Source: a virus (lineage: Duplodnaviria; Caudoviricetes). Taken from it: a stretch of DNA of 64,000 nucleotides. Of this stretch, positions 39,575-53,752 are shown one piece after another (the first letter of the stretch is position 1; every line of letters starts with the position of its first letter). The notes under the pieces are model-generated. The model saw only the letters and a program-made list of their open reading frames with translations, ran no database searches and was not told the origin of the DNA. The DNA is taken from the IMG/VR virus record IMGVR_UViG_3300028864_000017. The stretch is one strand, 5' to 3'. The position numbers were made by a program, and so were the translations under genes.

Positions 39575-39841
39575 ATGATAACAAATTTGAATATTGGAGA
39601 TAAAATTATTCTAAAAAAACCTTCAAATATATTTGAGGAATTTGGAATACCATCAGATTTGAGTGTTGATGAAACTTATACTATATCTGAGATACATAAA
39701 GGATTAATTGATAATGTCATTATACGTGTTGGAATAAAAGAAAAACCATATTCATTATATTATATTGGATTATTTGAAACATCATTGAAATTTGAAAGAA
39801 GACAAAAATTAAACAACTTGAAAAAATATGAAAAAAACTAA
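39575..39841 (+). CDS. KOW/SH3-like protein with RxxKL tag
   Basis: LNIGDKIIL, LSVDETYTI, ERRQKLNNL. Confidence 0.65.
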   Translation: MITNLNIGDKIILKKPSNIFEEFGIPSDLSVDETYTISEIHKGLIDNVIIRVGIKEKPYSLYYIGLFETSLKFERRQKLNNLKKYEKN

Positions 39842-40904
39842 TTTAAAACTGGCAAACGGAGAAAAAGCACTAATTGTTGATAACAATGAAGTGAAAATTT
39901 TAAAATCAGAAAACTACAATTTTCTATTTAATAAAAAAACAGGATTCTTTGCCAGATGGGGTAAAACAGAAGAAGATGATGGAGATTTAAATCTTGGATT
40001 ACCTGAAATTGCAGATATCGAAATTGCTGAAATTTGTGAAGGTGTTCCTGGAATAGGGCCATGTAAATTCTGCTATAAGAGTAATGGTAATCATGGACAT
40101 AATATGTCATTAGAAACATTCAAAAAAGTTTTCGATAAATTACCATCAAGTATTGGACAAATCGCATTTGGTTGTGGTACATTGAGAAGACATCCTGAAA
40201 TGTGGGAAATTTTCAAATATGCGAAAGATAATGGTGTCACACCAAATTTGACAATAAATGGTGACGTTGATGATGATGAATTTGATAAAATTTCTGAGAT
40301 GTGCGGAGCATGTGCAGTTTCTATTTATGATAAAAATCTATCATATGACGCTATTAAAAAACTTACTGATCGTGGAATGAAACAAGTGAATATTCACTAT
40401 ATGATTAGTCAAGAAACATATGAAAAGGCATTTGAAATAATGGATGATATAAAAACTGATCCAAGACTTGAAAAATTAGGAGCATTAGTATTTTTGAGTT
40501 TAAAAACAAAAGGTAGAAGCAAAGGCAAATTTCATCAATTGACTCAAGAACAATTTTCTAATCTTACTAATTATGCTCTTACTAATTCTGTTCCTATGGG
40601 ATTTGATTCTTGCTCAGCACAAAAATTCATGAAAGCAATTAAAGGACATGTAAATGAAGAAAAAATGATTCAATGTGCAGAACCTTGTGAAAGCACACTA
40701 TATAGCTTATATGTTGATGTCAATGGCAATTTCTTTCCATGTTCATTTTCACCTGATACAGAAGGTTGGGAAAAAGGATTATCTGTAATTGATTGTAATG
40801 ATTTCATTGAAGATATTTGGCAAAATGAAAAAACAAAAAAATTCCGTGATGGTGTCATAAAATGTAGGAACTGTGCTAAAAGTTGTTCAATTTATGAAAT
40901 TTAA
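39828..40904 (+). CDS. Radical SAM enzyme with SPASM/twitch C-terminal domain
   Basis: CEGVPGIGPCKFCY (CX8CX2C), TPNLTING, CAVSIY; PCESTLYSLYVDVNGNFFPCSF ... CRNCAKSC. Confidence 0.88.
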   Translation: MKKTNLKLANGEKALIVDNNEVKILKSENYNFLFNKKTGFFARWGKTEEDDGDLNLGLPEIADIEIAEICEGVPGIGPCKFCYKSNGNHGHNMSLETFKKVFDKLPSSIGQIAFGCGTLRRHPEMWEIFKYAKDNGVTPNLTINGDVDDDEFDKISEMCGACAVSIYDKNLSYDAIKKLTDRGMKQVNIHYMISQETYEKAFEIMDDIKTDPRLEKLGALVFLSLKTKGRSKGKFHQLTQEQFSNLTNYALTNSVPMGFDSCSAQKFMKAIKGHVNEEKMIQCAEPCESTLYSLYVDVNGNFFPCSFSPDTEGWEKGLSVIDCNDFIEDIWQNEKTKKFRDGVIKCRNCAKSCSIYEI

Positions 40905-40934
40905 TTTATATAATTTTTTATTAATATTCTAAAT

Positions 40935-41417
40935 TTAGAATATTAATAAAAAATATGATATTGAAACAGTTAAAAATGTAAATATTTCTATCCACCAAAC
41001 TATATTTGGCTTCATTTTTGGTATTAAATATGTTATAGCAGTCAATAACAATAAGCCTGCAGTTAAATACCATTGATTCATAATGAATGTAATAAATATT
41101 TGGGAGAAAAATATACCAACTATAGCTCCAATTGAGTGAACTGTATTTTCCATTTTTAAATCTTTAAAAGCAGGAGCAGCACCAACAAAGCATATACCTG
41201 ATCCAGCTAAAAACATCAATCCAGATAACGGAACTCCAATCATAATAGCAGGAATTGCATATCCCCACATCGCAATAGTAAAAAGAAATTGTAAATTTCT
41301 TGGAAGTTTATAATAACTCAATGAAACTGATGACAATACTCCATATGTTAAAAACATTGATAATACATATGAAATGAAAAAAGTATTCATAATTAAATAT
41401 AAAATTAAATTATTCAT
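40935..41417 (-). CDS. Multi-pass membrane protein
   Basis: About five hydrophobic segments; SVSLSYYKL, FVGAAPAFK, VHSIGA. Confidence 0.7.
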   Translation of the reverse strand: MNNLILYLIMNTFFISYVLSMFLTYGVLSSVSLSYYKLPRNLQFLFTIAMWGYAIPAIMIGVPLSGLMFLAGSGICFVGAAPAFKDLKMENTVHSIGAIVGIFFSQIFITFIMNQWYLTAGLLLLTAITYLIPKMKPNIVWWIEIFTFLTVSISYFLLIF

Positions 41418-41466
41418 AGTTTATTTTTATTGTATATATTTATTATCAAATTTAATTTTTTAAAAA

Positions 41467-41676
41467 ATGAAAATAAAAATAGAAGATTTATCTTTTAAAG
41501 AAGAATTGGAATTAATTGATTCTGCACTTTATAATGCTATTTATATTATGAGATGGACAGAAAACAAAGAAGGATTATATGCAGTACTTCAAGTAGAAGA
41601 AGCTGAGAAGATGGTGGAAGATATAGTAAGTGAATTGAATAAAATAGGGTACGAAATAAAAAAAATTGAAAAATAA
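41467..41676 (+). CDS. Hypothetical protein
   Basis: ORF. Confidence 0.55.
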   Translation: MKIKIEDLSFKEELELIDSALYNAIYIMRWTENKEGLYAVLQVEEAEKMVEDIVSELNKIGYEIKKIEK

Positions 41677-41720
41677 TTTGGTAATTACAAAAATAGTTTG
41701 TATCTTTAATAATATTATAA

Positions 41721-41975
41721 ATGACAATATTTACACTAAGTCTTAATAATTTCTTTTTCGATATTGAAGATAATATTTTTTATCATAGATATAATAGTTT
41801 TAGAGTAAAGTTTGTGGAATTTCAGACACATAACGAATTTCATTTATATTACGGAGGTTACGATAATTATCTAGGAAGCTTTACTGATGAAGAAATATTT
41901 ATTAAAAAAATGAAAGATTATAATATTAAGATATTGAGATATAAAAAATTAAAAGAATTAGAACTCACAAAATAA
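41721..41975 (+). CDS. Hypothetical protein with RxxKL tag
   Basis: LRYKKLKEL. Confidence 0.6.
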   Translation: MTIFTLSLNNFFFDIEDNIFYHRYNSFRVKFVEFQTHNEFHLYYGGYDNYLGSFTDEEIFIKKMKDYNIKILRYKKLKELELTK

Positions 41976-41982
41976 TAATCAT

Positions 41983-42285
41983 ATGCAAAAAAATATTTTA
42001 AATTTAGTAAATAGTTTTTGGAAATTTGATTCTGAACAACAACCATCATCAAGCTGGAATGATAAACAAGACTTATTAAAAGAGATTGAAAAAATTCAAT
42101 TTGAAGAACTTGCGTCTGTTCGAAATAAATTAAGTCCTATATATAATTTATTAACAATGTTAGAAAGTTCATCTGACGGAGAAAAAATAGTTATCAAAGA
42201 TTCATTATATTTATTGGTAATATCTGAGATTAAAAAATCAAAAGAAGTTGTTGAATATATCGCTAAAAAAGATTTAGAAAAATGA
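41983..42285 (+). CDS. Hypothetical protein
   Basis: ORF. Confidence 0.6.
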   Translation: MQKNILNLVNSFWKFDSEQQPSSSWNDKQDLLKEIEKIQFEELASVRNKLSPIYNLLTMLESSSDGEKIVIKDSLYLLVISEIKKSKEVVEYIAKKDLEK

Positions 42286-42734
42286 TTGATGAAAATGTTT
42301 TATTTTTAACTTTCGATGCATCAGGATTTAATGGTCCTCGTCTTAAATATTATAAAGGAGAAATTTATAAGTTTGTAAAAATAGAATATCCTGGTCTGAA
42401 ATTTAATAGCACATTTACCTGTGTTGTAAATTATAGTATTGATATTAAATTGATACGTAAATTGAAATTGATGAGTGTAGCAAATCAAATAAAACATAAT
42501 AGCAAAGAAGATTTAATATTAAGTTTTATTGAAAAATCAAAGACTCTTAATGATAAAAAAGAATTTCATTATCCTAATCCTAATTATTGGTATAACTCAG
42601 ATGTTGGAAATGATATACTATTTGAAGAAAGAGAAATGTTAAGAGTTGAAAAATTAGAAAGCAACAAAAACAAATCAAAAATGTATAGTCAAAAAATAAA
42701 ACAATACAACAATAACAGAAACTATCGTAGATAA
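42282..42734 (+). CDS. Hypothetical protein
   Basis: Internal IRKLKLMSV. Confidence 0.6.
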   Translation: MIDENVLFLTFDASGFNGPRLKYYKGEIYKFVKIEYPGLKFNSTFTCVVNYSIDIKLIRKLKLMSVANQIKHNSKEDLILSFIEKSKTLNDKKEFHYPNPNYWYNSDVGNDILFEEREMLRVEKLESNKNKSKMYSQKIKQYNNNRNYRR

Positions 42735-42737
42735 TTT

Positions 42738-43019
42738 ATGAAAGAAGATACATGGAAAGATATTTTTATTAGACAAATTGGTTCTGGTAGATTTTGGAAA
42801 AATTTACTAAATAATGATTTTGATAATAGAAAATTTTTAGATAGAAGTGATGCAGTTTATATCTGCAAAAAAGCTCAATCTGACGCTTATGATAATTTAA
42901 TTATAATCCTAAATAAAGATTATGATATTGATAAAGAGATTATAATTAATATTAAAAAAATACAATTTGAATTGTGGAATACTGATGATTCAGGATTAGG
43001 ATTAATAAAATTAAAATAG
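42738..43019 (+). CDS. Hypothetical protein
   Basis: ORF with TAG stop. Confidence 0.6.
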   Translation: MKEDTWKDIFIRQIGSGRFWKNLLNNDFDNRKFLDRSDAVYICKKAQSDAYDNLIIILNKDYDIDKEIIINIKKIQFELWNTDDSGLGLIKLK

Positions 43020-43907
43020 ATGAATAAATATTTCACATATACAATAAAAGACAAAAAAGATAAAAATTATCTTTTTATTAAATATCTTATTGTAACTAAT
43101 ATAAAATTTTCAAGTTATCATGAATGCGAATATGGTGAGTATATAACTTTCAGTGTTAATAATAACATTCCAAGAAAATTAAAATTAAAAGTTCTAAATA
43201 ACATAAAAATTAGTTATGAAGAACAACAAATTTTAGAAATTATTAGTCAGTCTACACCAGGTGTGAGAATGGATGTTATGTGTGGTTCTGATTTTAATCA
43301 CACTTCTGAAACAGCAAAAAATTTCTCAAATACAAACAACGTAATTTGCAGTTTCAATTTTAATGGTATAATTTGTTTAATTGACAAAAGTACAAATCTC
43401 AATAATTTATATAAGTATTATAATGATGCTCATTTGATGGAATGGGCTAAAATTGGTCCTATATGTGATGATGAATATGATGATAAAACTAAAATTGAGT
43501 ATGAAAAAAAATTAAAAATATCTGAGGAAAAATCTATAAAAAGAAGAATTGAAGAACACAAAAAAGATATTGAAGTTAAAAGAAAGTATAAAGAAAAAAT
43601 AAAAGGAATTGATATTGAACTATTAAATCAAAAAGATTGGGATGATTGGAAGTTAAAAAATAAAGATTCATACGGAAATTGTGTATTTGAATATGCTGAA
43701 GGATGGGCTAAATTAATGCAATCAGAAGCAAAATCAAAAAGTAAAGAAATTGATATTGAATTACTAAAAGAAATTGCAAGTAAAACATCATTTGAAATGG
43801 ATTTTTTAGGAATATCAGGATCAATGTTTTATGCAGCTCAATCAATTCTTGTACAATGTTGGAAATATGGTAGTTTACTTAAAGAATGGAGTGAAATCAA
43901 TAAATGA
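43020..43907 (+). CDS. Hypothetical protein
   Basis: C-terminal DSYGNCVFEYAEGWAKLMQ ... GISGSMFYAAQSILVQCWKYG phage domain. Confidence 0.65.
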   Translation: MNKYFTYTIKDKKDKNYLFIKYLIVTNIKFSSYHECEYGEYITFSVNNNIPRKLKLKVLNNIKISYEEQQILEIISQSTPGVRMDVMCGSDFNHTSETAKNFSNTNNVICSFNFNGIICLIDKSTNLNNLYKYYNDAHLMEWAKIGPICDDEYDDKTKIEYEKKLKISEEKSIKRRIEEHKKDIEVKRKYKEKIKGIDIELLNQKDWDDWKLKNKDSYGNCVFEYAEGWAKLMQSEAKSKSKEIDIELLKEIASKTSFEMDFLGISGSMFYAAQSILVQCWKYGSLLKEWSEINK

Positions 43908-44542
43908 AAATAATAAAAGAAACTTGTTATAAAGGAACTAGAATTTTAGTCGGAGGAGAAAAAAGAGAATTAATAAATTCAATGATTAAAATATTAATTG
44001 ATGAATATCATTTTCAGGAAATTCAAATACCAATCATTCAATTTCAAGAATTGTTTCAAAATAAGGTAGGAGAAGAAAATAACAATATGATGTACAATTT
44101 TAAAGATAGAGGAGATAGAGATTTATGCTTAGCTCCTGAATATACTGCAGTTGTTCAAAAACTATCTAAAACAACATACAAAAATGAAAAAGATGTATTA
44201 TTATTCTATGTTTGTGAATGCTTTCGTGGAGAAAAACCACAGCATGGAAGATTTCGTCAATTCACTCAATTTGGAGTTGAAATATTAAATCCTACTCATG
44301 ATTATCTATCAGAAGGAGCAAACTTACAACATTTAGCAATGAAATTATTAACAAAAAATTTCACTGATAATATTGATGATTATGTTATTAACAATGATGT
44401 AAAAAGAGGACTTGATTATTACAAAAATGGTAAGGGATTTGAAATAACTTGCGAAAAATTAGGATCATCAAAACAGATTTGTGGAGGAGGAGAATATGAT
44501 GGAGGAGTTGGATTTGCAATAGGAATTGACAGATTAATATAA
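43904..44542 (+). CDS. hisS: Histidyl-tRNA synthetase-like protein, catalytic core only (212 aa)
   Basis: YNFKDRGDRDLCLAPEYTA; motif 2 FRGEKPQHGRFRQFTQFGVE; RGLDYY; motif 3 GGGEYDGGVGFAIGIDRL, then stop. Confidence 0.88.
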   Translation: MKIIKETCYKGTRILVGGEKRELINSMIKILIDEYHFQEIQIPIIQFQELFQNKVGEENNNMMYNFKDRGDRDLCLAPEYTAVVQKLSKTTYKNEKDVLLFYVCECFRGEKPQHGRFRQFTQFGVEILNPTHDYLSEGANLQHLAMKLLTKNFTDNIDDYVINNDVKRGLDYYKNGKGFEITCEKLGSSKQICGGGEYDGGVGFAIGIDRLI

Positions 44543-44587
44543 ACTATAAATAAAATATTGAATATAAATAATTAAATTAAAAATAAT

Positions 44588-44941
44588 ATGAAAATAAGAA
44601 GTGGATTTGTGAGTAACTCAAGTAGCTCATCTTTTGTAATTTTATTACCTGAGAATTTTCTTGAAATTGTTGATTATGATAAAATTACTGATGGTGATGA
44701 AGATTTTCCATTAGACACGTTTAAAGAATTATTGAAAAAACTTATTGATGAAAATGGATTATATAATTATGATATTTATGAGTATATAATATCTAATGAC
44801 GTGGAAGATTATGATTTACCTGATAGTTTAAATGATGTTATTCGTCCATACATAATTGCAGAGGTTGAAGGTGGTCCAGATGAAGGACAAATTATTATTG
44901 CTGATACTAAAAAAATCAATGAAATTTTAAAAAAGAAATAA
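44588..44941 (+). CDS. NSSSSS-motif protein 1
   Basis: MKIRSGFVSNSSSSSF. Confidence 0.8.
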   Translation: MKIRSGFVSNSSSSSFVILLPENFLEIVDYDKITDGDEDFPLDTFKELLKKLIDENGLYNYDIYEYIISNDVEDYDLPDSLNDVIRPYIIAEVEGGPDEGQIIIADTKKINEILKKK

Positions 44942-44945
44942 AATT

Positions 44946-45386
44946 ATGAAAGTAAGAAATGGATTTGTAAGTAATAGTAGCAGTAGTTCTTTTATTGTTA
45001 CTATTAAAAATGGAGAAAAAATATCAAAAAATATTCTTATGAAGTTATTTGATTTAGACGAAAATTCTATATTATTCAACTTTGCAAATGGATTATCGGA
45101 TTGGATGATTAACAATCTTAAAGAAATGAGCATTAAAGATATATTTGAAAATTATTGTGATTCAGGTAAGAATTTATCAGATGAAGAAATGATAGATGAA
45201 ATAATTGAACAAGGATATCCTAATATATCTAGAGAAGATTTGTTAAGAATATTAAGAAAAGAATATCGTTATTATGAAGGTTCAGCATCTGATGATTCTG
45301 GAGATGGATTAGAAACTTATTTATGTGAAACAGGAATAAATGTCAACAATGATTTAATTCACATTCAAAGTGGAGGAGATTATTAA
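44946..45386 (+). CDS. NSSSSS-motif protein 2
   Basis: MKVRNGFVSNSSSSSF. Confidence 0.8.
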   Translation: MKVRNGFVSNSSSSSFIVTIKNGEKISKNILMKLFDLDENSILFNFANGLSDWMINNLKEMSIKDIFENYCDSGKNLSDEEMIDEIIEQGYPNISREDLLRILRKEYRYYEGSASDDSGDGLETYLCETGINVNNDLIHIQSGGDY

Positions 45387-45403
45387 AAAAATAAATTAAA
45401 AAT

Positions 45404-45796
45404 ATGAAAATAAGAAATGGATTTGTAAGTAATTCAAGTAGTTCATCATTTGTAGTAAGAGGAATTAAACTTACAATATATGATTTAGCAAAATGCTTGA
45501 ATATAAAAAATGAAGAATTTGAAGAAATTGAAGATGATTATGATAAATTTGAATTTTTTTCAAATAAACTTGATGATGAATTTAGAATTGAAGCAGATGG
45601 TAATTATTTTGGAGAAAAAGATTACAATACTCTTATTGTAGGTGATTCACTAGGTGGATTAGAAGATGGAGAAGTAACAGAATTTAAAGATCGTACAACA
45701 GAAGAAGATGATGCATTACGTCAAAAATTTGAAAAATATGGAATTACAGGAGTAATTAACACATATATTCAAATGGTGAGTAACGACAATTATTAA
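45404..45796 (+). CDS. NSSSSS-motif protein 3
   Basis: MKIRNGFVSNSSSSSF. Confidence 0.8.
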   Translation: MKIRNGFVSNSSSSSFVVRGIKLTIYDLAKCLNIKNEEFEEIEDDYDKFEFFSNKLDDEFRIEADGNYFGEKDYNTLIVGDSLGGLEDGEVTEFKDRTTEEDDALRQKFEKYGITGVINTYIQMVSNDNY

Positions 45797-45824
45797 ACCA
45801 GTTTAAAATAGAATTAATAATATT

Positions 45825-46271
45825 ATGACAAATAATCAAACTCATAACATATTTTACTTTCTTGGAATTATGATAAATGATAATAAAATTATAAATACAT
45901 CACCTGATTATTTAATAGAAAAAGCTAATGCATTTTTTAGTAAATTAGGAAAAGATGAATTTATATCTAATATTAAAAATATATATCGTTCTCAAAAACT
46001 AGATTACACTACTGAATTTTGGTTATCATATTGTCAAATATGGCATATTGATAAAAACAATTTTGAATTGTTAAATATTATTAATTTTATATTAAATTCA
46101 AATATTACTGATACTAAAAATGTGATTCAAAACTTTAAAAAATATATTGGAGATATTAATATCATTCCTGATTTAGATTTGAGTTTTAAATTGCATCCAA
46201 CATTATTAATACATATAAATAAAAGTATTGATTTTGATAGTAGATATTTAAAGTTATTATCACTAAAATAA
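45825..46271 (+). CDS. Hypothetical protein
   Basis: ORF. Confidence 0.6.
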   Translation: MTNNQTHNIFYFLGIMINDNKIINTSPDYLIEKANAFFSKLGKDEFISNIKNIYRSQKLDYTTEFWLSYCQIWHIDKNNFELLNIINFILNSNITDTKNVIQNFKKYIGDINIIPDLDLSFKLHPTLLIHINKSIDFDSRYLKLLSLK

Positions 46272-46291
46272 AAACAAAAGAAAATAAAAGA

Positions 46292-47329
46292 ATGACAAAT
46301 AATATAGCGTTAACGTATGATGATATTCAACTTATACCATTTTATAGTGAAGTAGAACATAGAAATAAAATTTCATTAACAACAAAACTATCTACAAATT
46401 ATGAGTTGATGATACCATTGGTAGCATCACCTATGGATACCGTTTGTGAGCATGAAATGGCGTTTAAAATGTTTCAATTAGGAGGAGTAGGATGTATTCA
46501 TAGATTCATGACTATTGAAGAACAAGTTGATGAAATCAAAAAATTAAAAAAATTAATTGATTATAGTTTATATAATCCTTTTATTAATGTACAGAATATT
46601 CCAATAATGGCATCAGTAGGCTCAAATGGAGATTTTTTAGAAAGGTCTAAATCATTAATAGAATCTGGAGTAAATGTAATTCTTATTGATGTTGCTCATG
46701 GACATCACATAAATGTCAAAAAAGCGATTAAAGAAATAAAAGGATTGAATTTAGGAGTGGATATAATTGCAGGTAATATTGCAACTGCAGAAGCCGCAAT
46801 TGATTTGCAAAATTGGGGAGCTGATGGACTAAGATGTGGTATTGGTGGCGGAAGTCTTTGTACAACTAGAATCAAGACAGGATTTGGTGTTCCAAATGTT
46901 ACAAGTTTAATAGAAATTTTAAATGTTGCAAAAGTACCAGTTATGGCTGATGGTGGAATTAGAACAAGTGGAGATATATCAAAGGCTCTTGCATTAGGTT
47001 CATCTACTATTATGTTAGGCTCACTATTAGCTGGAACAGAAGAATCACCAGGAAAGGTTATAGAGAGTCCTAATGGCTTATATAAACGATATAGAGGCTC
47101 TGCATCATTAGAAACAAAAACTGTTCATGGTCAAGCGGAAAGAAATGTGGAAGGAGAGTCAACAACAATTCCATTTAAAGGAGGAGTCAAATTTGTAATT
47201 GAAGGATTAATAAACGGTGTTCGTTCTGCATTATCTTATGGAGGTGCAAAAAATTTATCTGAATATCACCCTAAATGGTATCAAGTAACAAATGCTGGAA
47301 TTGCTGAAGCAAGACCACATTTATTATAA
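46292..47329 (+). CDS. guaB: IMP dehydrogenase / GMP reductase family protein without CBS domains
   Basis: LTYDDIQLIP, ASPMDTV, IDVAHGH, GIGGGSLCTTR, ADGGIRTSGDISKALA, YRGSAS, VEG. Confidence 0.9.
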   Translation: MTNNIALTYDDIQLIPFYSEVEHRNKISLTTKLSTNYELMIPLVASPMDTVCEHEMAFKMFQLGGVGCIHRFMTIEEQVDEIKKLKKLIDYSLYNPFINVQNIPIMASVGSNGDFLERSKSLIESGVNVILIDVAHGHHINVKKAIKEIKGLNLGVDIIAGNIATAEAAIDLQNWGADGLRCGIGGGSLCTTRIKTGFGVPNVTSLIEILNVAKVPVMADGGIRTSGDISKALALGSSTIMLGSLLAGTEESPGKVIESPNGLYKRYRGSASLETKTVHGQAERNVEGESTTIPFKGGVKFVIEGLINGVRSALSYGGAKNLSEYHPKWYQVTNAGIAEARPHLL

Positions 47330-47347
47330 AAATAAAAACATGATAAC

Positions 47348-47809
47348 ATGAAAATAAGAAATGGATTTGTTAGTAATTCATCATCAAGTAGTTTTATTGT
47401 TGGCATAGCCAAGATTAATGATTACAATGAATTTACACAATACACAAAAGATAATAATATTAAATTAGATTATGATGTTAAAGTATTAACCTTATCTAAT
47501 ATTAAAGAAAGTACTAATTATGATATACATTTTAATAACAATAAAATTTATGTAGATTCATTTCAAACAGATGCAAATTTAGATATTAAAGATTGTAAAG
47601 ATGAAGATTTATTTTTAGTTGTTAATATATGTAATAATGAAGGTGATTCAGATTTTATGACATCTGATTATGATGATATTGATTATGATATTGATATGTC
47701 ATTCTTTAATAAAAATGATAAAAACGTTTATAATGCATTTTATAGTAATAAATCGGGATTGGACTTAAATAAATCAGAAGTTTATTTTGGTGCAGGTCGA
47801 AATGGATAA
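47348..47809 (+). CDS. NSSSSS-motif protein 4
   Basis: MKIRNGFVSNSSSSSF. Confidence 0.8.
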   Translation: MKIRNGFVSNSSSSSFIVGIAKINDYNEFTQYTKDNNIKLDYDVKVLTLSNIKESTNYDIHFNNNKIYVDSFQTDANLDIKDCKDEDLFLVVNICNNEGDSDFMTSDYDDIDYDIDMSFFNKNDKNVYNAFYSNKSGLDLNKSEVYFGAGRNG

Positions 47810-47830
47810 AAAATAAAATAAAAATAAAAT

Positions 47831-48133
47831 ATGAAAATAAGAAATGGATTTGTTAGCAATTCATCATCAAGTAGTTTTGTTATAATTGGAGTCAAAAGAT
47901 TAGATTGTACAGAAGAAGAAGTTGAAAATGGATTTGAAAATGGAATAGAAGCACTTGATGTTGAAATGTCTAATTATGGATATATTGTTGGATATATAAT
48001 TTCAAATGGTGAAGAATTAAATTCTAGTATAACACCAATATCTGTTATAATGGAAAAGTCAAAAATAGTAGCAGAAACATTAAATGTTGATATTAGTGAA
48101 GTAGAATTAATAACTGGAACTAGATATTGTTAA
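47831..48133 (+). CDS. NSSSSS-motif protein 5
   Basis: MKIRNGFVSNSSSSSF. Confidence 0.8.
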   Translation: MKIRNGFVSNSSSSSFVIIGVKRLDCTEEEVENGFENGIEALDVEMSNYGYIVGYIISNGEELNSSITPISVIMEKSKIVAETLNVDISEVELITGTRYC

Positions 48134-48150
48134 TATAAATAATATAAAAT

Positions 48151-48789
48151 ATGAAAATAAGAAATGGATTTGTAAGTAACTCATCATCTAGTAGCTTTAT
48201 AATTTCTAACAACAATTTTGAAAGTTTACGTGATCTTGCTACGCATATGATTAAATCGAAATATGATGATTATATGGGTAATACTGGAAGAGATAAACAA
48301 TATGATAAATATAGAATAAAAGAGCATGATTTATACATTAATGGGCTAAAAAATATAGACAAAAATCAGGCAATAACATTTCAAAGTTGTAACTATGATA
48401 CTTATATAAAAAAAGTAGCAGATTGCTATTTAGTTTCTACTAGTAATAACGAAGATTGGGATTTATGGCAATTTAGCACTAAATTAACTGATGATGCAAA
48501 ATCAGAATTACGAATATTATTACAAAAATATAAGGAAGATGATGATGAATGGTGCAGCATAACCAGTCTACTTGATGGTGATAGTGAATTTTATTCTTTT
48601 GATAATGATTATTATTCTTTAGATTATCAATTATTAGGAAAAGAAAGTTATGAATCTTGTCCAATATGTGATAAAAAAGGAGATTTTAATTATATGTGGG
48701 AAACAAAAAAGCACGGTCTTATATGTCCAGTATGTAATACAGTATATAAAAGAAAAGATAAATTAGATGAAATAACTAAAAATTTATAA
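48151..48789 (+). CDS. NSSSSS-motif protein 6 with Zn ribbon and RxxKL tag
   Basis: MKIRNGFVSNSSSSSF; CPICD ... CPVCN; RKDKLDEI. Confidence 0.8.
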   Translation: MKIRNGFVSNSSSSSFIISNNNFESLRDLATHMIKSKYDDYMGNTGRDKQYDKYRIKEHDLYINGLKNIDKNQAITFQSCNYDTYIKKVADCYLVSTSNNEDWDLWQFSTKLTDDAKSELRILLQKYKEDDDEWCSITSLLDGDSEFYSFDNDYYSLDYQLLGKESYESCPICDKKGDFNYMWETKKHGLICPVCNTVYKRKDKLDEITKNL

Positions 48790-48861
48790 TATTTTTGATT
48801 AAAATATTATAATATCAAATATTTTTTATAATTTTGTAAATAAAAATAAAAATAAAAATAT

Positions 48862-49053
48862 ATGTTAGAATTATTAAAATATGCTACTTCAGATTTTTGG
48901 ACATTTATATTTTGTTTTTTCATAATTTCTGTAATTGGAAGTTTTATAGTGGAAATATTCAACGCAATTTTTAAAAAGTCAGAGATTAGAATAGATTTAA
49001 CAGATAAAAAAGATAAACCAGATAAAACAGATAAAACAGATAATAAAAAATAG
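48862..49053 (+). CDS. Small membrane protein
   Basis: One TM helix; DK(T/P)DK repeat tail. Confidence 0.55.
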   Translation: MLELLKYATSDFWTFIFCFFIISVIGSFIVEIFNAIFKKSEIRIDLTDKKDKPDKTDKTDNKK

Positions 49054-49054
49054 T

Positions 49055-49579
49055 ATGAAAATAAGAACTGGATTTGTAAGCAATTCATCATCAAGTAGTT
49101 TTGTAGTTATCTTCCCATTTGAACCGAAATGTATGGAAGATGTAAAAAAAATTCTTTTTAGGGAAGAACAGTTATATTATGGAGATGAAAATTATTCTGT
49201 AAATAAAGTTTCAGAAACTATCTGGAATGATATATGTGATCAAACTAAGAATGATATTGATAAGGCAAGTGAAATAATATCGAATGGATATTTGGAAATG
49301 GAAAATGATGCTCCTGATTTTGATGATTTTAAATATATTGAAGATAGAAATGAAAGATGGGAAGCATTTGCAGAAGCTAAAGATAAATATTCAAAAAAAT
49401 TACTTAAAGAATTTTTCAATGTAAGAAAATTAAAACTTCAAGTTATTGATGGTAAAGAGGTAAATGATGGAGTGATGTATTGTTTTAGTTTTTCAGATAA
49501 TGATGGAGAATATTATAGTGCACTTGAACATGATGGAATATTCAACAAATTAAAAAATATAACTGTCAATTGTCATTGA
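49055..49579 (+). CDS. NSSSSS-motif protein 7
   Basis: MKIRTGFVSNSSSSSF; ends ITVNCH. Confidence 0.8.
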   Translation: MKIRTGFVSNSSSSSFVVIFPFEPKCMEDVKKILFREEQLYYGDENYSVNKVSETIWNDICDQTKNDIDKASEIISNGYLEMENDAPDFDDFKYIEDRNERWEAFAEAKDKYSKKLLKEFFNVRKLKLQVIDGKEVNDGVMYCFSFSDNDGEYYSALEHDGIFNKLKNITVNCH

Positions 49580-49855: not shown

Positions 49856-50033
49856 GTTTATAATATCATTTTCAGTATATATTTATATTGTAATGTTATC
49901 AAACTATAAAATATAAATGAAAATATAAGTAAAATATTAAAAAACAATAAAATATTTGGTAAACAATTCAAACCGAAGTACATTTGTATTGAAATTAAAA
50001 CAACAATCATTTAAATCATCTAAATTAAAAATT

Positions 50034-50198
50034 ATGACTACTAATTCAAGTAAATCAGAAAAAGTTTTCTTTTTGACTAAATCAGAATACAATGGAATTA
50101 AAGAAGTTGTAAATCTAAAAAATTTCACCAGAGTTCCAGGTGCAAATAAAGAAGTTGGTGGCTTCTCATTTTATGCAAAGAAAGAAAATGTTCTATAA
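50034..50198 (+). CDS. 54-aa protein, copy 1
   Basis: MTTNSSKSEKVFFLTKSEYNGIKEVVNLKNFTRVPGANKEVGGFSFYAKKENVL. Confidence 0.7.
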   Translation: MTTNSSKSEKVFFLTKSEYNGIKEVVNLKNFTRVPGANKEVGGFSFYAKKENVL

Positions 50199-50291: not shown

Positions 50292-50462
50292 ATGACAACT
50301 AATTCAAGTAAATCAACAAAAGTTTTCTTTTTGACTCAAAATGAGTATAATGTTATTAAAGAGGTAGTAAACCTTAAAAATTTCACCAGAGTTCCAGGAA
50401 TAAATAAAGAAGTTGGTGGCTTCTCATTTTATGCAAAGAAAGAAAAAGAACTTGCAATGTAA
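50292..50462 (+). CDS. 56-aa protein, copy 2
   Basis: MTTNSSKSTKVFFLTQNEYNVIKEVVNLKNFTRVPGINKEVGGFSFYAKKEKELAM; missed by the ORF track. Confidence 0.7.
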   Translation: MTTNSSKSTKVFFLTQNEYNVIKEVVNLKNFTRVPGINKEVGGFSFYAKKEKELAM

Positions 50463-51506: not shown

Positions 51507-51578
51507 CGCGCGGTAGGGAAGTGATACCCCGCAAGGCTCATAACCTTGAGAACGCTGGTTTGAGTCCAGCCTGCGCAA
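51507..51578 (+). tRNA. tRNA-Met(CAT), initiator-like
   Basis: C1:A72 mismatch; caagg-CTCATAA-ccttg; T arm gctgg-TTTGAGT-ccagc. Confidence 0.8.
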
Positions 51579-51583
51579 CAATT

Positions 51584-51664
51584 AAAAAACTATATTGAAC
51601 AGCACCTCACTGGTAATGGGGACAATGCGAGTACACTAGCAGCTAAACTCAAAATAGTTTTTTT
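51584..51664 (+). ncRNA. tRNA-like structured element with Thr(GGT)-type anticodon hairpin
   Basis: Outer stem actat.ttga/tcaa.atagt, ACAGCA, cctca-CTGGTAA-tgggg; no canonical D or T arms. Confidence 0.45.
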
Positions 51665-51691
51665 AAAAATAATAAATTAAAAGTAAATATC

Positions 51692-51826
51692 ATGAATAAC
51701 ATTAATAACATATACAGCATTTATCGCAATTGTAATATTAATTACAATATGGAAGAGATATGTATTAATATGATTAATAATGATTATATTAATGATGATG
51801 AAAATAATGTAGGAAGAACTGGATAA
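51692..51826 (+). CDS. Putative attenuator leader peptide 2 (44 aa)
   Basis: MNNINNIYSIYRNCNINYNMEEICINMINNDYINDDENNVGRTG; no K, L or F. Confidence 0.75.
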   Translation: MNNINNIYSIYRNCNINYNMEEICINMINNDYINDDENNVGRTG

Positions 51827-51890
51827 GTTAAAAAATTATTATGTGAATAATAAAAAAACTCAGTTCTTAAAAATAAGAACTGAGTTTTTT
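51814..51890 (+). terminator. Attenuator 2: terminator with competing antiterminator
   Basis: Stem CTCAGTTCTT (51859-68)/AAGAACTGAG (51875-84) plus T6; AAGAACTG (51814-21) complements CAGTTCTT (51861-68). Confidence 0.82.
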
Positions 51891-51933
51891 ATTTTTAAAT
51901 GCTCTTTGAAATACTAGATAATGAATAATAAAT

Positions 51934-52016
51934 GGGAGTAATGCTCAAATTGGTCAGGCGCAAAACTGTAAATTTTGTAACCTTTTAGGTCGTCAGTTCG
52001 AATCTGGCTGCTCCCA
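51934..52016 (+). tRNA. tRNA-Tyr(GTA)
   Basis: caaaa-CTGTAAA-ttttg, long variable arm, TTCGAAT. Confidence 0.9.
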
Positions 52017-52026
52017 CAAAAAACAC

Positions 52027-52098
52027 GATGCGTTCGTATATCGGAAAGTACTCTAGGTTTTCAACCTAGCAAGATGAGTTCAACTCTCATACGCATTA
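52027..52098 (+). tRNA. tRNA-Glu(TTC)
   Basis: gatgcgt/acgcatt; ctagg-TTTTCAA-cctag; atgag-TTCAACT-ctcat. Confidence 0.85.
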
Positions 52099-52106
52099 CA
52101 AAAAAT

Positions 52107-52179
52107 GGGATATAGGTCAAATGGTTAAGATGTCACCCCGTCACGGTGCACGGAGCGAGTTCGAATCTCGTATATCCCG
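52107..52179 (+). tRNA. tRNA-Asp(GTC) with C33
   Basis: gggatat/atatccc; loop CCGTCAC; TTCGAAT. Confidence 0.85.
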
Positions 52180-52202
52180 CTTATTATCAAAAAATTAAAA
52201 AT

Positions 52203-52290
52203 GCATTGGTTGCTTTAGTCGGTCGAAAAGTCTGGTCTGTTAAACCAGTAAGAGTAATCTTCAACGTAGGTTCGAATCCTATCCAGTGCG
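52203..52290 (+). tRNA. tRNA-Asn(GTT) with long variable arm
   Basis: gcattgg/ccagtgc; ctggt-CTGTTAA-accag; aaga-GTAA-tctt extra arm. Confidence 0.85.
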
Positions 52291-52296
52291 CAAAAA

Positions 52297-52368
52297 GGGA
52301 GTGTAGCTCAAAGGTAGAGCGTTTCGCTGTTAACGAAAGTGTTGGGATGTCGCAATTCCCCACTCCCG
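52297..52368 (+). tRNA. tRNA-Asn(GTT) with atypical T loop
   Basis: gggagtg/cactccc; tttcg-CTGTTAA-cgaaa; T loop ATGTCGCAAT lacks TTC. Confidence 0.8.
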
Positions 52369-52448
52369 CGAATAAATGATTAACTTTAAACTTTAATCTT
52401 TTTTAATATTATATATTTTTATATATACAATAAAAATATAAATAAATT

Positions 52449-53273
52449 ATGGAAAGCATTAAAACTAAAATATTATCATTAAGAAAAGAAGGAAAAACAT
52501 ACAATGAAATATCAGAATTATTAAATTGTTCAAAAGGTACAATATCTTATCATTGTAAAAAATTATATAATAATATTGAATTAAATAAAAAAAACACAAA
52601 ATTATCAAATTTAAAAAAATTAAAAAATATACCAAATATAGATTTTGGTGATGAGATATCTGATGAGATTTTTAAAAAAGTTATTGAATATCGAATAAAT
52701 GGTAATACATATGAAGAAATAATAGAAAAAACTAAATTATCTTTAGATAAAATTAAAAAAATATGCAGATTAAATAATATCAATGATGGTAATTATAAAA
52801 AAAATAATTATTGTAAAATATATGAAAACGTTAATAATGATGACGTTATTGAAATGCAAAAATACTATGATGAATGTAAAAGTACAAGAAAAGTATCTAA
52901 AAAATTCAATATTGGTAGATATCAAATATCTAAAATTTTAATTATAAATAAAAAAGAAAAATTATCTAAAGAAGAGTATAAAATAAAAAGAAAAAATGAT
53001 ATTGTAAATAATGTTATTAGTTGGAGAAAAGATAAAAAAAGGAAACTTGTTGAATATAAAGGAGGAAAATGCGAAAGGTGTGGATATGATAAATGTATAG
53101 ATGTATTTGATTTTCATCATAAAGATCCTACTCAAAAAGATTTTGGAATAAGTGCAAAATCTTATTCATATGAAAGATTAAAAAAAGAAGTTGATAAATG
53201 TATGTTAGTGTGTAAAAATTGTCACACAGAAATACATTATGAAATAAAAAATAAAAATGGTTCTGGCGCATAA
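52449..53273 (+). CDS. HTH plus HNH endonuclease (homing-endonuclease-like) inside the tRNA array
   Basis: N-terminal HTH repeats; CERCGY ... FDFHHKDP ... KCMLVCKNCHTEIH. Confidence 0.88.
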   Translation: MESIKTKILSLRKEGKTYNEISELLNCSKGTISYHCKKLYNNIELNKKNTKLSNLKKLKNIPNIDFGDEISDEIFKKVIEYRINGNTYEEIIEKTKLSLDKIKKICRLNNINDGNYKKNNYCKIYENVNNDDVIEMQKYYDECKSTRKVSKKFNIGRYQISKILIINKKEKLSKEEYKIKRKNDIVNNVISWRKDKKRKLVEYKGGKCERCGYDKCIDVFDFHHKDPTQKDFGISAKSYSYERLKKEVDKCMLVCKNCHTEIHYEIKNKNGSGA

Positions 53274-53344
53274 CGGCTGGTGTACCTGACTGTCACTCAG
53301 GCTTCTCGTAAGGGATATAGGGAATTCGACTTTCCTCAGAACCG
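53259..53344 (+). tRNA. tRNA-Asp(GTC) with long variable arm
   Basis: ggttctg/cagaacc; cctga-CTGTCAC-tcagg; tctc-GTAA-ggga extra arm. Confidence 0.85.
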
Positions 53345-53354
53345 CAAAGATAAT

Positions 53355-53436
53355 GGAAATATCGCATAGTGGCAATTGCAACTGACTGTAAATCAGTTCT
53401 TTCACAAGTTCGTGGGTTCGAGTCCCTCTATTTCCA
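53355..53436 (+). tRNA. tRNA-Tyr(GTA)
   Basis: ggaaata/tatttcc; actga-CTGTAAA-tcagt; TTCGAGT. Confidence 0.9.
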
Positions 53437-53443
53437 CAAAAAT

Positions 53444-53517
53444 GACCGAGTGCCCGAATGGAATAAAGGGATAGTCTGCAAAACTATATTGTGTGGGTTC
53501 GAGTCCCACCTTGGCCT
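53444..53517 (+). tRNA. tRNA-Cys(GCA)
   Basis: atagt-CTGCAAA-actat; gtggg-TTCGAGT-cccac; U73. Confidence 0.88.
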
Positions 53518-53529
53518 CAATGAACATTA

Positions 53530-53601
53530 TGCCGAAGCTTAGTGGAAAAGAGATTTCTCTCATAAGGAAATCCAAATGAGTTCGAACCTCATATTCGGTA
53601 C
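53530..53601 (+). tRNA. tRNA-CAT (Met or Ile2)
   Basis: tttct-CTCATAA-ggaaa; atgag-TTCGAAC-ctcat; acceptor register slightly irregular. Confidence 0.75.
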
Positions 53602-53667
53602 AGAGTTTATTATTATGACTAGTATCATACTAATAGTATGTTATGATTAATAAAAATAAACTAAAAT

Positions 53668-53741
53668 AGTCTTGTATATCAGTCGGTTAGATTGTCATCC
53701 TGATAAGATGGAGGTCGTGAGTTCAAGTCTCACCAGGACTA
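53668..53741 (+). tRNA. tRNA-Ile(GAT)
   Basis: agtcttg/caggact; tcatc-CTGATAA-gatgg; TTCAAGT. Confidence 0.9.
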
Positions 53742-53752
53742 CTAAATAACAT

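What the first reader, a model, noticed from the sequence alone, without database searches (positions are those of the whole stretch)
39828..49579. Seven unrelated proteins share an invariant N-terminal MK(I/V)RxGFVSNSSSSSF tag near a radical SAM/SPASM enzyme
SEEN: ORFs 44588, 44946, 45404, 47348, 47831, 48151 and 49055 share this 16-residue start but diverge afterwards (100-212 aa, mostly acidic). The Ser codons mix TCN and AGY between copies (e.g. agt aac tca agt agc tca tct vs agt aat agt agc agt agt tct), so selection acts on the peptide, not on a DNA repeat. A radical SAM/SPASM gene lies 3.7 kb upstream on the same strand. KNOWN: SPASM enzymes modify peptides and proteins; for example, anSME converts Ser/Cys to formylglycine. 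INFERENCE: this may be a phage-encoded post-translational modification system with one maturase and a family of tagged substrates. Alternatively the tag is a self-processing or shared docking element.
Basis: partly seen in the sequence, partly recalled or inferred. Interest (0 to 1): 0.8.

Follow-up and report, generated by a model that had tools for sequence, protein, structure and literature searches.

The report
Radical-SAM enzyme with N-terminally tagged proteins
A huge phage encodes seven small acidic proteins that differ in sequence but start with the same 16 residues; this start travels with one radical-SAM enzyme across large phages and bacterial defence operons, so it is probably the handle by which that enzyme grips, and probably modifies, many proteins.

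Summary
Exactly seven + strand ORFs start MK(I/V)RxGFVSNSSSSSF. Serine codons switch between TCN and AGY. All seven proteins are acidic, and without the tag they fall into seven separate sequence families.

The tag is not confined to this phage. It marks a large family with no functional annotation (phrog_7397) in huge phages, cultured T4-like phages such as RB43, and bacterial genomes.

The tag co-occurs with one radical SAM/SPASM family (phrog_7293):
- All 20 tag-bearing viral records that are at least 45% complete carry the enzyme.
- Only 0.34% of cultured phage records carry it.
- 7 of 7 contigs chosen by the enzyme alone carry tagged genes within 10 kb.
- In 104 of 104 loci that hold both, they lie on the same strand, with a median gap of 404 bp.

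In bacteria, a single tagged gene lies directly upstream of the enzyme gene, inside Avs-like STAND operons.

Two AlphaFold models show residues 1-11 as a free tail and residues 13-20 as the first strand of a small shared core. A complex model places residues 1-9 in the enzyme barrel (ipSAE 0.71, best control 0.01).

Best reading: one maturase acts on many tagged protein substrates. The chemistry is unknown and no modification has been shown. No paper, Pfam, NCBIfam or PADLOC model describes the system. Earlier notes of this scan reached the same reading on other genomes.

The parts
39828..40904 (+). Radical SAM enzyme with a SPASM/twitch auxiliary-cluster domain (358 aa), family phrog_7293. 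It is the proposed maturase that docks the tag.
   Evidence: Pfam SPASM 2.7e-6 and phrog_7293 9.8e-96. Radical_SAM Pfam hits in 15 of 21 relatives. Cluster cysteines C70, C79 and C82 (Cx8Cx2C here, Cx3Cx2C in many relatives) and C-terminal C262, C287, C305 and C353 are invariant or nearly so. The family profile hits the BtrN twitch domain at 2e-5, SkfB at 5e-4 and SuiB at 1e-3.
44588..44941 (+). Tagged protein 1 (117 aa, net charge -14)
   Evidence: Starts MKIRSGFVSNSSSSSF. phrog_7397 matches residues 1-29.
44946..45386 (+). Tagged protein 2 (146 aa, net charge -12). Its body is homologous to the 137-aa tagged protein of the bacterial cassettes.
   Evidence: hhalign of tag-less subfamilies gives 98% probability, E 9e-14. 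AlphaFold model: pLDDT 84.4, residues 1-11 below 50, first strand 13-21.
45404..45796 (+). Tagged protein 3 (130 aa, net charge -14)
47348..47809 (+). Tagged protein 4 (153 aa, net charge -11)
   Evidence: phrog_7397 matches residues 1-138.
47831..48133 (+). Tagged protein 5 (100 aa, net charge -9)
48151..48789 (+). Tagged protein 6 (212 aa, net charge -7) with a C-terminal four-cysteine zinc-ribbon-like piece
   Evidence: Weak zinc-ribbon family hits at residues 162-205, all below Pfam and NCBIfam cut-offs.
49055..49579 (+). Tagged protein 7 (174 aa, net charge -11). It is a full-length member of phrog_7397 and also has conserved C-terminal D148, E158-H159 and H174.
   Evidence: phrog_7397 7.4e-11 over residues 1-170. 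51 homologues; invariant columns. AlphaFold model: pLDDT 87.5, residues 1-10 mean 49, strands 13-20, 140-147 and 167-173. Used as the partner in the complex model.

Best explanation
This is a two-component protein-tagging system. The radical SAM/SPASM enzyme (39828-40904) recognises the free N-terminal peptide MK(I/V)RxGFVS of each tagged protein.

In the model, residues 1-5 pair as an extra strand with the enzyme's conserved N-terminal strand (GFFARWG, residues 38-45). Residues 6-9 reach the SAM-binding face of the barrel. Residue N10 and the serine run lead into the first strand (residues 13-20) of each protein's own small core, so the body stays outside the enzyme.

The enzyme then most likely makes a radical-based covalent change within about G6-S15. 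Candidates are a cross-link, an epimerisation or an oxidation. The same change would be made on all seven (and in other phages up to eight or more) different acidic proteins, so one maturase serves many substrates.

Shown here: the tag, its selection at the protein level, the genomic coupling, and the modelled docking. Inferred: that docking leads to catalysis, which residue is hit, and what the modified proteins do. Their acidity, their diversity and the Avs-like context of the bacterial form point to phage-host conflict.
For: Tag and selection: seven copies, 100% identical serines with 49% DNA identity.

Cultured T4-like phages RB43, RB16 and KP15-like carry it. 77 stretches in prokaryote genome contigs. 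389 distinct tagged proteins were collected, median 131 aa, 95% net-negative.

Coupling:
- The enzyme is in 37 of 49 tag-bearing viral records and in 20 of 20 that are at least 45% complete. Only 172 of 50,697 cultured phage records carry it.
- The enzyme and the tagged family are the only families shared across 21 loci.
- 17 of 20 enzyme-centred stretches have tagged genes.
- 7 of 7 enzyme-first contigs have tagged genes.
- Of 104 loci with both, 104 have them on the same strand, with a median gap of 404 bp and a gap of 2 kb or less in 90.
- In G028 the gap is 2 bp and in G024 it is 17 bp.
- In bacteria the single 137-aa tagged gene lies directly upstream of the enzyme gene, overlapping or abutting it.
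- The enzyme clade co-varies with the tag variant: TST/SST with the bacterial-type clade, SSS with the phage-type clade.

Structure: in two subfamilies the AlphaFold models leave residues 1-10/11 at pLDDT 39-49 and start the first strand at residue 13.

Complex model: ipSAE 0.71 (runs 0.65, 0.71, 0.71) against a best control of 0.01.
- This mark was reached by 58 of 80 solved complexes and 2 of 110 mismatched pairs.
- Runs agree in at least 62% of contacts. Partner pLDDT is at least 42.
- Confident contacts involve only tag residues 1-9. On the enzyme they involve residues 38-45, 111, 113, 140-142, 159-163, 186, 188, 190 and 282-285, many of which are invariant columns of the family alignment.

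Enzyme class: the nearest curated families are peptide-modifying radical SAM/SPASM maturases (MftC 1e-26, WgkB 4e-21 and PqqE 2e-18 for the bacterial form), all far below their cut-offs.
Against: No modification has been observed; everything is genomic or modelled.

The complex counts hold only roughly. My own alignments were used, and small molecules rode along. The partner's own fold was uncertain in the complex (pLDDT under 50 in at least one run). Solved radical SAM-peptide complexes exist, so the pass may partly reflect likeness to them.

In this window the enzyme gene is 3.7 kb from the array, and in RB43-like phages it is about 20 kb away. Seen from the tag, only 43 of 116 viral and 39 of 77 genome stretches hold the enzyme. 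An earlier check of this scan found few phage tags with the enzyme within 8 genes. I explain this by scattered multi-copy tags, but that explanation is an inference.

Co-occurrence counts are not phylogenetically independent.

Substrates of 100-212 folded residues are unusual for this enzyme class.

G6 is replaced by K, N or S in 8 of 389 tags.
Confidence: 0.58

Rival explanations
1. Adaptor model. The tag is a docking strand only. Each variable body recruits a different target (a host or phage molecule) to the radical SAM enzyme, or regulates it. The tagged proteins are exchangeable subunits rather than substrates and are not themselves modified.
For: This would explain the same co-occurrence and adjacency data. 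In the complex model the best-defined contacts are strand-like pairing of residues 1-5 with enzyme residues 38-45. The bodies are folded domains of many kinds.
Against: In the model, G6 and F7 touch barrel residues 111, 140, 160, 161 and 186. A pure adaptor would block that site. N10, S11, S12 and S15 are invariant beyond the docking stretch, which suggests more than anchoring. The nearest enzyme families modify the peptide they bind.
Confidence: 0.17
2. Structural-motif model. The 16-mer is simply the conserved first strand and loop of one ancient small fold, perhaps a ligand- or metal-binding site together with the acidic loop after the second strand. The radical SAM gene is a neighbour for reasons of co-regulation or shared ancestry of a gene block.
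For: Residues 13-20 are the first core strand in both models, and both models share the layout strand, helical insert, strand, acidic loop, helix, strand. The subfamily of the 49055 protein also has conserved D148, E158-H159 and H174, which look like a site of its own.
Against: Residues 1-11 are modelled as a free tail, yet they are the most conserved part. Coupling with the enzyme holds across enzyme sequences only 28-57% identical, across phage and bacterial contexts, and in both search directions, always on the same strand. The complex model passes its controls.
Confidence: 0.12
3. Glycyl-radical or self-processing model. The enzyme installs a stable radical on G6 (RxGF resembles the RVxG[FY] glycyl-radical motif), or the tag cleaves itself at N10-S11.
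For: G6 followed by an aromatic residue is nearly invariant, and G6 lies in the barrel in the complex model. Asn-Ser and Ser-Ser bonds are classic self-cleavage sites (established knowledge).
Against: The enzyme has a SPASM/twitch domain and is nearest to peptide maturases, not to glycyl-radical activases. The spacing is R-x-G rather than R-V-x-G, and the motif lies at the N-terminus of a small non-GRE fold. G6 is K, N or S in 8 of 389 tags. Self-cleavage would not need the enzyme.
Confidence: 0.05

Closest known systems
RiPP systems with one radical SAM/SPASM maturase and several precursors that share a recognition sequence (MftC-MftA, PqqE-PqqA, SuiB/StrB-streptide, SkfB, WgkB). Prochlorosins are a parallel for 'one enzyme, many substrates', although their enzyme is not a radical SAM enzyme.
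   Same: Radical SAM core plus a C-terminal auxiliary-cluster domain. Best but sub-threshold NCBIfam matches are MftC, WgkB and PqqE. The substrate gene is next to the enzyme gene on the same strand. A conserved recognition piece is joined to variable remainders. The peptide is modelled as an added strand leading into the barrel.
   Different: The partners are folded 100-300-aa acidic proteins, not short peptides. The conserved piece is the extreme N-terminus and seems to hold both the handle and the target. No RRE domain was detected; instead the enzyme has its own N-terminal strand motif. There are up to eight or more partners per genome. No protease or exporter gene is conserved nearby.
FxsB / FxSxx-COOH peptide system in conflict operons (as described in Kaur, Burroughs, Iyer, Aravind 2020, PMC7159879)
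   Same: A radical SAM-SPASM gene lies beside proteins that share only a short conserved terminal peptide. That system is embedded in NTPase-based conflict operons, and the bacterial form of the present system sits in Avs-like STAND operons.
   Different: That system has a C-terminal FxSxx motif, whereas this one has an N-terminal MKIRxGFVSNSSSSSF tag. The paper does not mention this tag. The phage form has no NTPase partner.
Anaerobic sulfatase-maturating enzymes (anSME/AtsB) with their sulfatases
   Same: A radical SAM/SPASM enzyme acts on a whole protein, with serine as a possible target.
   Different: The tag has no (C/S)xPxR motif. The partners are not sulfatases, with no Pfam hit. No anSME model is among the NCBIfam matches at E 0.01 or better. 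Only four C-terminal cysteines are invariant in the family.
T4 internal proteins with a shared N-terminal capsid-targeting sequence
   Same: Unrelated small phage proteins in a variable array share a short N-terminal peptide (established knowledge, not tested here).
   Different: That peptide is a packaging signal cut by the prohead protease and has no link to a radical SAM enzyme. Here the tag also occurs in bacterial operons without phage structural genes.

Membership tests
Radical SAM superfamily | Three-cysteine motif (CxxxCxxC or a variant) for the SAM-binding 4Fe-4S cluster | tested here: met
   C70, C79 and C82 are present (Cx8Cx2C). C70 and C82 are invariant and C79 is at least 90% conserved in 21 relatives, many of them with Cx3Cx2C. 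Pfam Radical_SAM hits 15 of 21 relatives. The window's own copy misses the Pfam Radical_SAM model.
SPASM/twitch subfamily of radical SAM enzymes | C-terminal cysteine-rich domain that holds one or two auxiliary Fe-S clusters | tested here: met
   PF13186 SPASM at 2.7e-6, 28 bits against a cut-off of 21.5. It hits 13 of 21 relatives. The window protein has eight C-terminal cysteines, of which four are invariant in the family. The family profile hits the BtrN twitch domain at 2e-5. Whether there is one cluster or two cannot be told.
RiPP radical SAM/SPASM peptide maturases (MftC, PqqE, SuiB and similar) | Scores above the curated cut-off of a named maturase family | tested here: not met
   The best hits for the window enzyme are 25 bits or less against cut-offs of 265-515. 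For the bacterial form, MftC scores 94 bits against a cut-off of 265.
RiPP radical SAM/SPASM peptide maturases (MftC, PqqE, SuiB and similar) | Short precursor peptide (leader plus core) encoded beside the enzyme | tested here: not met
   The partners are 100-212 aa here (median 131 aa over 389 proteins) and have confidently modelled folds. Adjacency holds in most relatives, but here the gap is 3.7 kb.
RiPP radical SAM/SPASM peptide maturases (MftC, PqqE, SuiB and similar) | RiPP recognition element (RRE) domain in the enzyme | tested here: inconclusive
   No Pfam or NCBIfam domain was found on residues 1-60. The family has its own conserved N-terminal motif YNYxF....GFFARWG, which the complex model uses to bind the tag. 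The enzyme's structure was not predicted on its own.
anSME/AtsB sulfatase maturases | Substrate motif (C/S)xPxR in a sulfatase | tested here: not met
   The tag is MKIRxGFVSNSSSSSF, with no xPxR after any serine. No partner has a sulfatase Pfam hit.
Glycyl-radical enzyme plus activase | RVxG[FYW] motif near the C-terminus of a glycyl-radical fold; activase without a SPASM domain | tested here: not met
   The motif here is R-x-G-F at residues 4-7 of small proteins with no match to a known fold. The enzyme has a SPASM domain.
FxsB / FxSxx-COOH system | Conserved C-terminal FxSxx peptide on the partner proteins | tested here: not met
   The conserved piece is N-terminal, and the C-termini of the seven proteins differ. 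The paper text was checked.
phrog_7397 (phage protein family of unknown function) | Match to the family profile | tested here: met
   All seven match. The 49055 protein matches over 166 of 170 profile positions at 7.4e-11, the 47348 protein over positions 1-135, and the other five over the first 19-29 positions only.

The most novel reading that the evidence does not exclude
A general, so far undescribed protein-marking system of phage-host conflict. One radical SAM/SPASM enzyme puts the same radical-made modification on the free N-terminal peptide of many unrelated folded proteins. Large phages have expanded the set of marked proteins to arrays of acidic effectors. Bacteria use a single marked protein inside Avs-like STAND defence operons. 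The tag would then be a portable 'modify me' signal, comparable to a leader peptide but for whole proteins.
Probability: 0.45. Interest if true: 0.85.

Novelty: new variant of a known kind. Interest (0 to 1): 0.72.

Why it matters
If the enzyme modifies the tag, this would be a radical SAM maturase with whole folded proteins as a multi-member substrate family. It would be recognised through a 16-residue N-terminal signal that is conserved across very different large phages (this huge phage, T4-like phages) and bacteria of several phyla.

The system is common. Searches here found 2,837 enzyme clusters at E 1e-10 or better and hundreds of tagged proteins. It occurs in cultured, tractable phages (RB43, RB16 and KP15-like phages of E. 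coli and Klebsiella) and in culturable bacteria such as Veillonella parvula. Even so, Pfam, NCBIfam, PADLOC and my literature searches do not describe it.

Its place in Avs-like operons and its expansion in phages suggest a role in defence or counter-defence. The chemistry could be new. A short portable tag that directs a radical modification could also be useful as a tool.

Tried and rejected
Searches that found nothing
- DNA search and tblastn of the region and of the 49055 protein against cultured phages gave no match. The tblastn miss is probably due to divergence and the low-complexity filter, because family members do exist in that collection.
- Pfam, NCBIfam and PADLOC gave nothing for any tagged protein.
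- ESM Atlas feature search of the two extra bacterial cassette genes gave no usable hit.
- Full-text searches for the motif strings and for radical SAM/SPASM with phage or defence terms found no paper describing the system. Kaur et al. 2020 describes a different, C-terminal motif.

Fold searches of the two models
- Foldseek against PDB gave no match at E 0.001 or better.
- AlphaFold DB clusters and the ESM Atlas returned only unnamed relatives, plus weak ferredoxin-like rows at TM about 0.3.
- VIA-align over 48,161 chains gave a best Z of 3.8 (rmsd 4.3, 119 aligned) for one model and 3.0 (rmsd 4.8, 117 aligned) for the other. These are at the level of common arrangements. This does not show that the fold is new.

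Failed or uninformative steps
- Back-translating the enzyme alignment for a collection scan failed because it had no conserved stretch. The single-protein scan found only the sister genome. I therefore did the enzyme-first test through the protein database.
- Promoter and terminator scans were uninformative: 101 promoter-like sites against 93 in shuffles.

Ideas considered and rejected
- HisRS-like gene plus radical SAM enzyme as an EF-P-style (EpmA/EpmB) pair. The HisRS-like gene is not conserved next to the system in other loci.
- vWA/MIDAS-like or Toprim-like reading of the serine run and the SDNDG loop. No search supported it.

Full report
**1. The observation**

The + strand between 44588 and 49579 holds seven ORFs of 100-212 aa that start MK[IV]R[SNT]GFVSNSSSSSF. 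A six-frame scan for the serine motif finds these seven and no others in the 64-kb window. A profile search of the whole 143,429-bp viral record also finds only these seven. In every case the tag begins at the first start codon of the ORF.

Fourteen of the sixteen positions are identical in all seven copies, whereas mean column identity over the whole proteins is 29%. The codons for S11-S15 are only 49% identical between copies (minimum 20%) and mix TCA, TCT, AGT and AGC. The 48-nt flanks are 44% and 36% identical. So the conservation is maintained at the protein level and is not a DNA repeat.

All seven proteins are acidic, with net charge -7 to -14 and pI 4.2-5.1. The radical SAM/SPASM gene at 39828-40904 lies on the same strand and ends 3,684 bp upstream of the first tagged gene.

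**2. The genome**

The record is an IMG/VR contig that CheckV rates 20% complete. Relatives of its genes lie on contigs of up to 711 kb. The window has 20-31% G+C. It carries Hsp70, RtcB, a PIN-PhoH protein, a cation-efflux protein, an ankyrin protein and a cluster of eight tRNA genes. It is therefore a fragment of a huge phage.

**3. The tagged family**

No Pfam, NCBIfam or PADLOC model matches the seven proteins. All seven match phrog_7397, a family of unknown function. Five match only over the first 19-29 positions, the 47348 protein matches over positions 1-135, and the 49055 protein matches over the full length.

A DNA pattern for the tag finds the following:
- 77 stretches in prokaryote genome contigs.

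Members occur in cultured T4-like phages (RB43 ORF116c and ORF121c, RB16, KP15-like Klebsiella phages, and Cronobacter, Enterobacter and Citrobacter phages). All are annotated as hypothetical.

From all fetched loci I collected 389 distinct tagged proteins. Their median length is 131 aa, and 95% are net-negative after the tag, with a median charge of -11. After the first 20 residues are removed they split into 116 BLAST components, of which 86 are singletons. The seven window proteins fall into seven different components. Profile-profile comparison links only 5 of 171 subfamily pairs at 50% probability or more. One clear link joins the window's 44946 protein to the 137-aa tagged protein of the bacterial cassettes (98% probability, E 9e-14).

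**4. Fold**

AlphaFold models were made for two subfamilies that are unrelated by sequence.

| Model | Mean pLDDT | Low-confidence N-terminus | Strands |
|---|---|---|---|
| 49055 protein (41-sequence alignment) | 87.5 | residues 1-10, mean 49 | 13-20, 140-147, 167-173 |
| 44946 protein (42-sequence alignment) | 84.4 | residues 1-11, below 50 | 13-21, 107-115, 138-142 |

Both models have the same layout:
- an unmodelled N-terminal tail;
- a first strand that begins at S13 and runs through F16 and the following hydrophobic residues;
- a variable helical insert;
- a second strand ending in an acidic loop (SDNDG or SDDSGDG);
- a helix and a last strand.

So the tag has two halves. Residues 1-11 are a free tail, and residues 13-20 are the first core strand of what may be one very divergent small fold.

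No solved or named fold matches. Foldseek against PDB gave nothing at E 0.001 or better. VIA-align gave a best Z of 3.8 and 3.0. The predicted-structure libraries returned only unnamed relatives.

**5. The enzyme**

The 358-aa protein has a SPASM domain and belongs to phrog_7293 at 9.8e-96.

An alignment of 21 relatives, 28-57% identical to the window's enzyme, shows these conserved features:
- the radical SAM cluster cysteines, with the first spacing varying from 3 to 12 residues and being Cx8Cx2C here;
- four invariant C-terminal cysteines;
- a family-specific N-terminal motif, YNYxF....GFFARWG.

The family profile hits the BtrN twitch domain (2e-5), SkfB (5e-4) and SuiB (1e-3) in the PDB. 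The bacterial form is nearest to MftC, WgkB and PqqE, but far below their cut-offs. No anSME model appears among the matches. It is therefore a new subfamily within the peptide- and protein-modifying SPASM/twitch enzymes.

**6. Coupling of tag and enzyme**

This is the main new result.

(a) Whole records. Of 49 tag-bearing viral records, 37 carry the enzyme. All 20 records that are at least 45% complete carry it, including 10 of 10 that are at least 90% complete. The 12 records without it are 6-40% complete.

(b) Base rate. Only 172 of 50,697 cultured phage records (0.34%) carry the enzyme, and they belong to the same genera that carry the RB43-type tagged locus.

(c) Neighbourhood. Across 21 enzyme-centred stretches, the enzyme and the tagged family are the only families shared by more than seven loci. 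17 of 20 stretches have tagged genes, usually directly downstream. In G028 the gap is 2 bp and in G024 it is 17 bp.

(d) Enzyme-first sample. Seven contigs were chosen only because they encode an enzyme homologue (48-65% identity), and all seven have one to six tagged genes within 10 kb.

(e) Arrangement. In all 104 fetched loci that hold both, the nearest tagged gene is on the enzyme's strand. The median gap is 404 bp, and the gap is 2 kb or less in 90 loci.

(f) Co-variation. The bacterial-type enzyme clade goes with the T-containing tag variants (FVTNSSSTSF), and the phage-type clade goes with the all-serine variant.

Caveats:
- The loci are related by descent, so these counts are not independent events.
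- Seen from the tag, only 43 of 116 viral stretches and 39 of 77 genome stretches hold the enzyme.
- In RB43-like phages the two lie about 20 kb apart, and in this window 3.7 kb apart.
- An earlier check of this scan reported that few phage tags have the enzyme within eight genes.

Tagged genes are multi-copy and scattered in several clusters, of which one lies by the enzyme. This fits both sets of numbers, but that reconciliation is my inference.

**7. The bacterial sister form**

In Veillonella parvula, Acetatifactor muris, Lachnobacterium bovis, Sulfuricurvum, Verrucomicrobia, Acidobacteriota and others, a single 137-aa tagged protein is encoded directly upstream of the enzyme gene. The two genes overlap or abut. 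A gene of about 136 aa precedes them, and in the Firmicutes loci a gene of about 300 aa follows.

Upstream lies a trypsin-STAND NTPase that hits the PADLOC Avs2 model (9e-16), and an MBL-fold protein that hits Avs1a and LmuA models. Homologues of this NTPase are in 12 loci from three phyla. One Sulfuricurvum locus also adjoins a SIR2-HerA system, and one locus adjoins an integrase. The module therefore belongs to conflict loci in bacteria. The phage form lacks the NTPase and has multiplied the tagged genes.

**8. Complex model**

I modelled the enzyme (alignment of 21), the 49055 protein (alignment of 41), two 4Fe-4S clusters and SAM together.

- The score (ipSAE) was 0.71 (three runs: 0.65, 0.71, 0.71) against 0.01 for the best of three controls.
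- The mark was reached by 58 of 80 solved complexes and by 2 of 110 mismatched pairs in the tool's calibration.
- The runs agree in at least 62% of contacts. The partner's pLDDT is at least 42, so its own fold was uncertain in the complex.
- The counts hold only roughly, because my own alignments were used and ligands rode along.
- Solved radical SAM-peptide complexes exist, so part of the pass may reflect likeness to them.

The confident interface involves only residues 1-9 of the tagged protein. K2 to T5 (the variable fifth position of the tag) pair with enzyme residues 38-45, the conserved GFFARWG strand, and touch residues 282-285 next to an auxiliary-cluster cysteine. G6 and F7 touch residues 111, 140, 160, 161 and 186. 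These lie among the invariant barrel residues Q111, A113, N140, T142, G160, N188 and H190. This is the geometry expected of a substrate peptide. The model supports binding; it does not show it.

**9. Mechanism proposed**

The enzyme captures the free N-terminal nonapeptide by strand addition and threads residues 6-9 over the SAM site. The invariant N10 and the serine run connect to the first strand of the partner's core and may also be contacted or modified. A 5'-deoxyadenosyl radical then abstracts a hydrogen within about G6-S15. The outcome could be a cross-link, an epimerisation or a serine oxidation, and I cannot tell which. An aromatic-to-i+2 link between F7 and S9, of the cyclophane type, is one possibility recalled from the literature and not tested here.

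The same mark would be placed on every tagged protein. What the marked proteins do is unknown. Their acidity, diversity and expansion in large phages, together with the Avs-like context in bacteria, suggest roles in defence and counter-defence.

I give the steps these odds:
- functional coupling: about 0.9;
- the tag as the enzyme's docking element: about 0.7;
- covalent modification of the tag: about 0.55-0.6.

**10. Comparison with known systems, and novelty**

The system works like a RiPP maturase with several precursors that share a recognition sequence. It fails the membership tests for any named family: the scores are sub-threshold, the partners are folded proteins, and no RRE domain was found.

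It also differs from three other systems:
- anSME/sulfatase: the tag has no (C/S)xPxR motif;
- the FxSxx-COOH/FxsB system of conflict operons: that motif is C-terminal;
- glycyl-radical systems: the spacing, the position in the protein and the enzyme type are all wrong.

Literature searches found no description.

Earlier notes of this scan, made on other genomes, reached the same reading. I reproduced the linkage, the Avs-like context and the docking independently here. I rate the system as a new variant of a known kind.

Noticed in passing
window 43904-44542 (+): A 212-aa histidyl-tRNA synthetase-like protein that has only the class II catalytic core (HisS model 1.3e-41, HisZ model 2.6e-24, both far below cut-off) and no anticodon-binding part. 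It ends 46 bp before the first tagged gene. It is not conserved next to the system in other loci.
   Followed up: partly
window 46292-47329 (+): An IMPDH/GMP reductase family gene (7.6e-100) sits inside the array of tagged genes. A homologue lies near the radical SAM gene in 5 of 21 loci, and in one (L223) it carries an intein.
   Followed up: partly
window 49956-50198 and 50292-50462 (+): Two tandem small ORFs encode near-identical peptides (MTTNSSKS.KVFFLT..EYN.IKEVVNLKNFTRVPG.NKEVGGFSFYAKKE). This is a local duplication of unknown function just downstream of the array.
   Followed up: no
window 51507-55847 (+): A cluster of eight tRNA genes (Met, Tyr x2, Glu, Asn, Cys, Ile, Arg) is interrupted by an HTH-HNH homing-endonuclease-like gene at 52449-53273.
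   Followed up: no
window 1917-27738: Host-like genes in a huge-phage fragment: cation-efflux protein (1917-2786), PIN-PhoH (4354-5694, - strand), ankyrin-repeat protein (13149-14093), RtcB RNA ligase (23551-24945) and full-length Hsp70 (25852-27738). CheckV completeness of 20% for 143 kb implies a genome of roughly 700 kb.
   Followed up: partly
L118 (RB43, record 92715-93864) and hits H76, H77, H24: In RB43 and some relatives the radical SAM gene is annotated as two ORFs, or read through stops (3 TAA in RB43). In phage VAC66 a GIY-YIG gene lies at the site. The enzyme gene may be split or disrupted in some cultured phages, which matters when choosing an experimental model.
   Followed up: no
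L140, L183, L153, L163, L190, L146, L162, L176, L182, L213 (bacterial genome contigs): A conserved bacterial operon: MBL-fold protein, trypsin-STAND NTPase (Avs2-like), a 136-aa gene, the tagged 137-aa gene, the radical SAM gene and, in the Firmicutes loci, a gene of about 300 aa. None of the three small or unknown genes has a Pfam, NCBIfam or PADLOC family. It is a candidate undescribed Avs-type defence system.
   Followed up: partly
L127, L130, L136, L137, L223 and others: A recurrent tagged subfamily continues straight after the tag with F[IV]CD[VI][CS]GE (36 members). The cysteine pair directly follows the tag. This subfamily is absent from the window.
   Followed up: no
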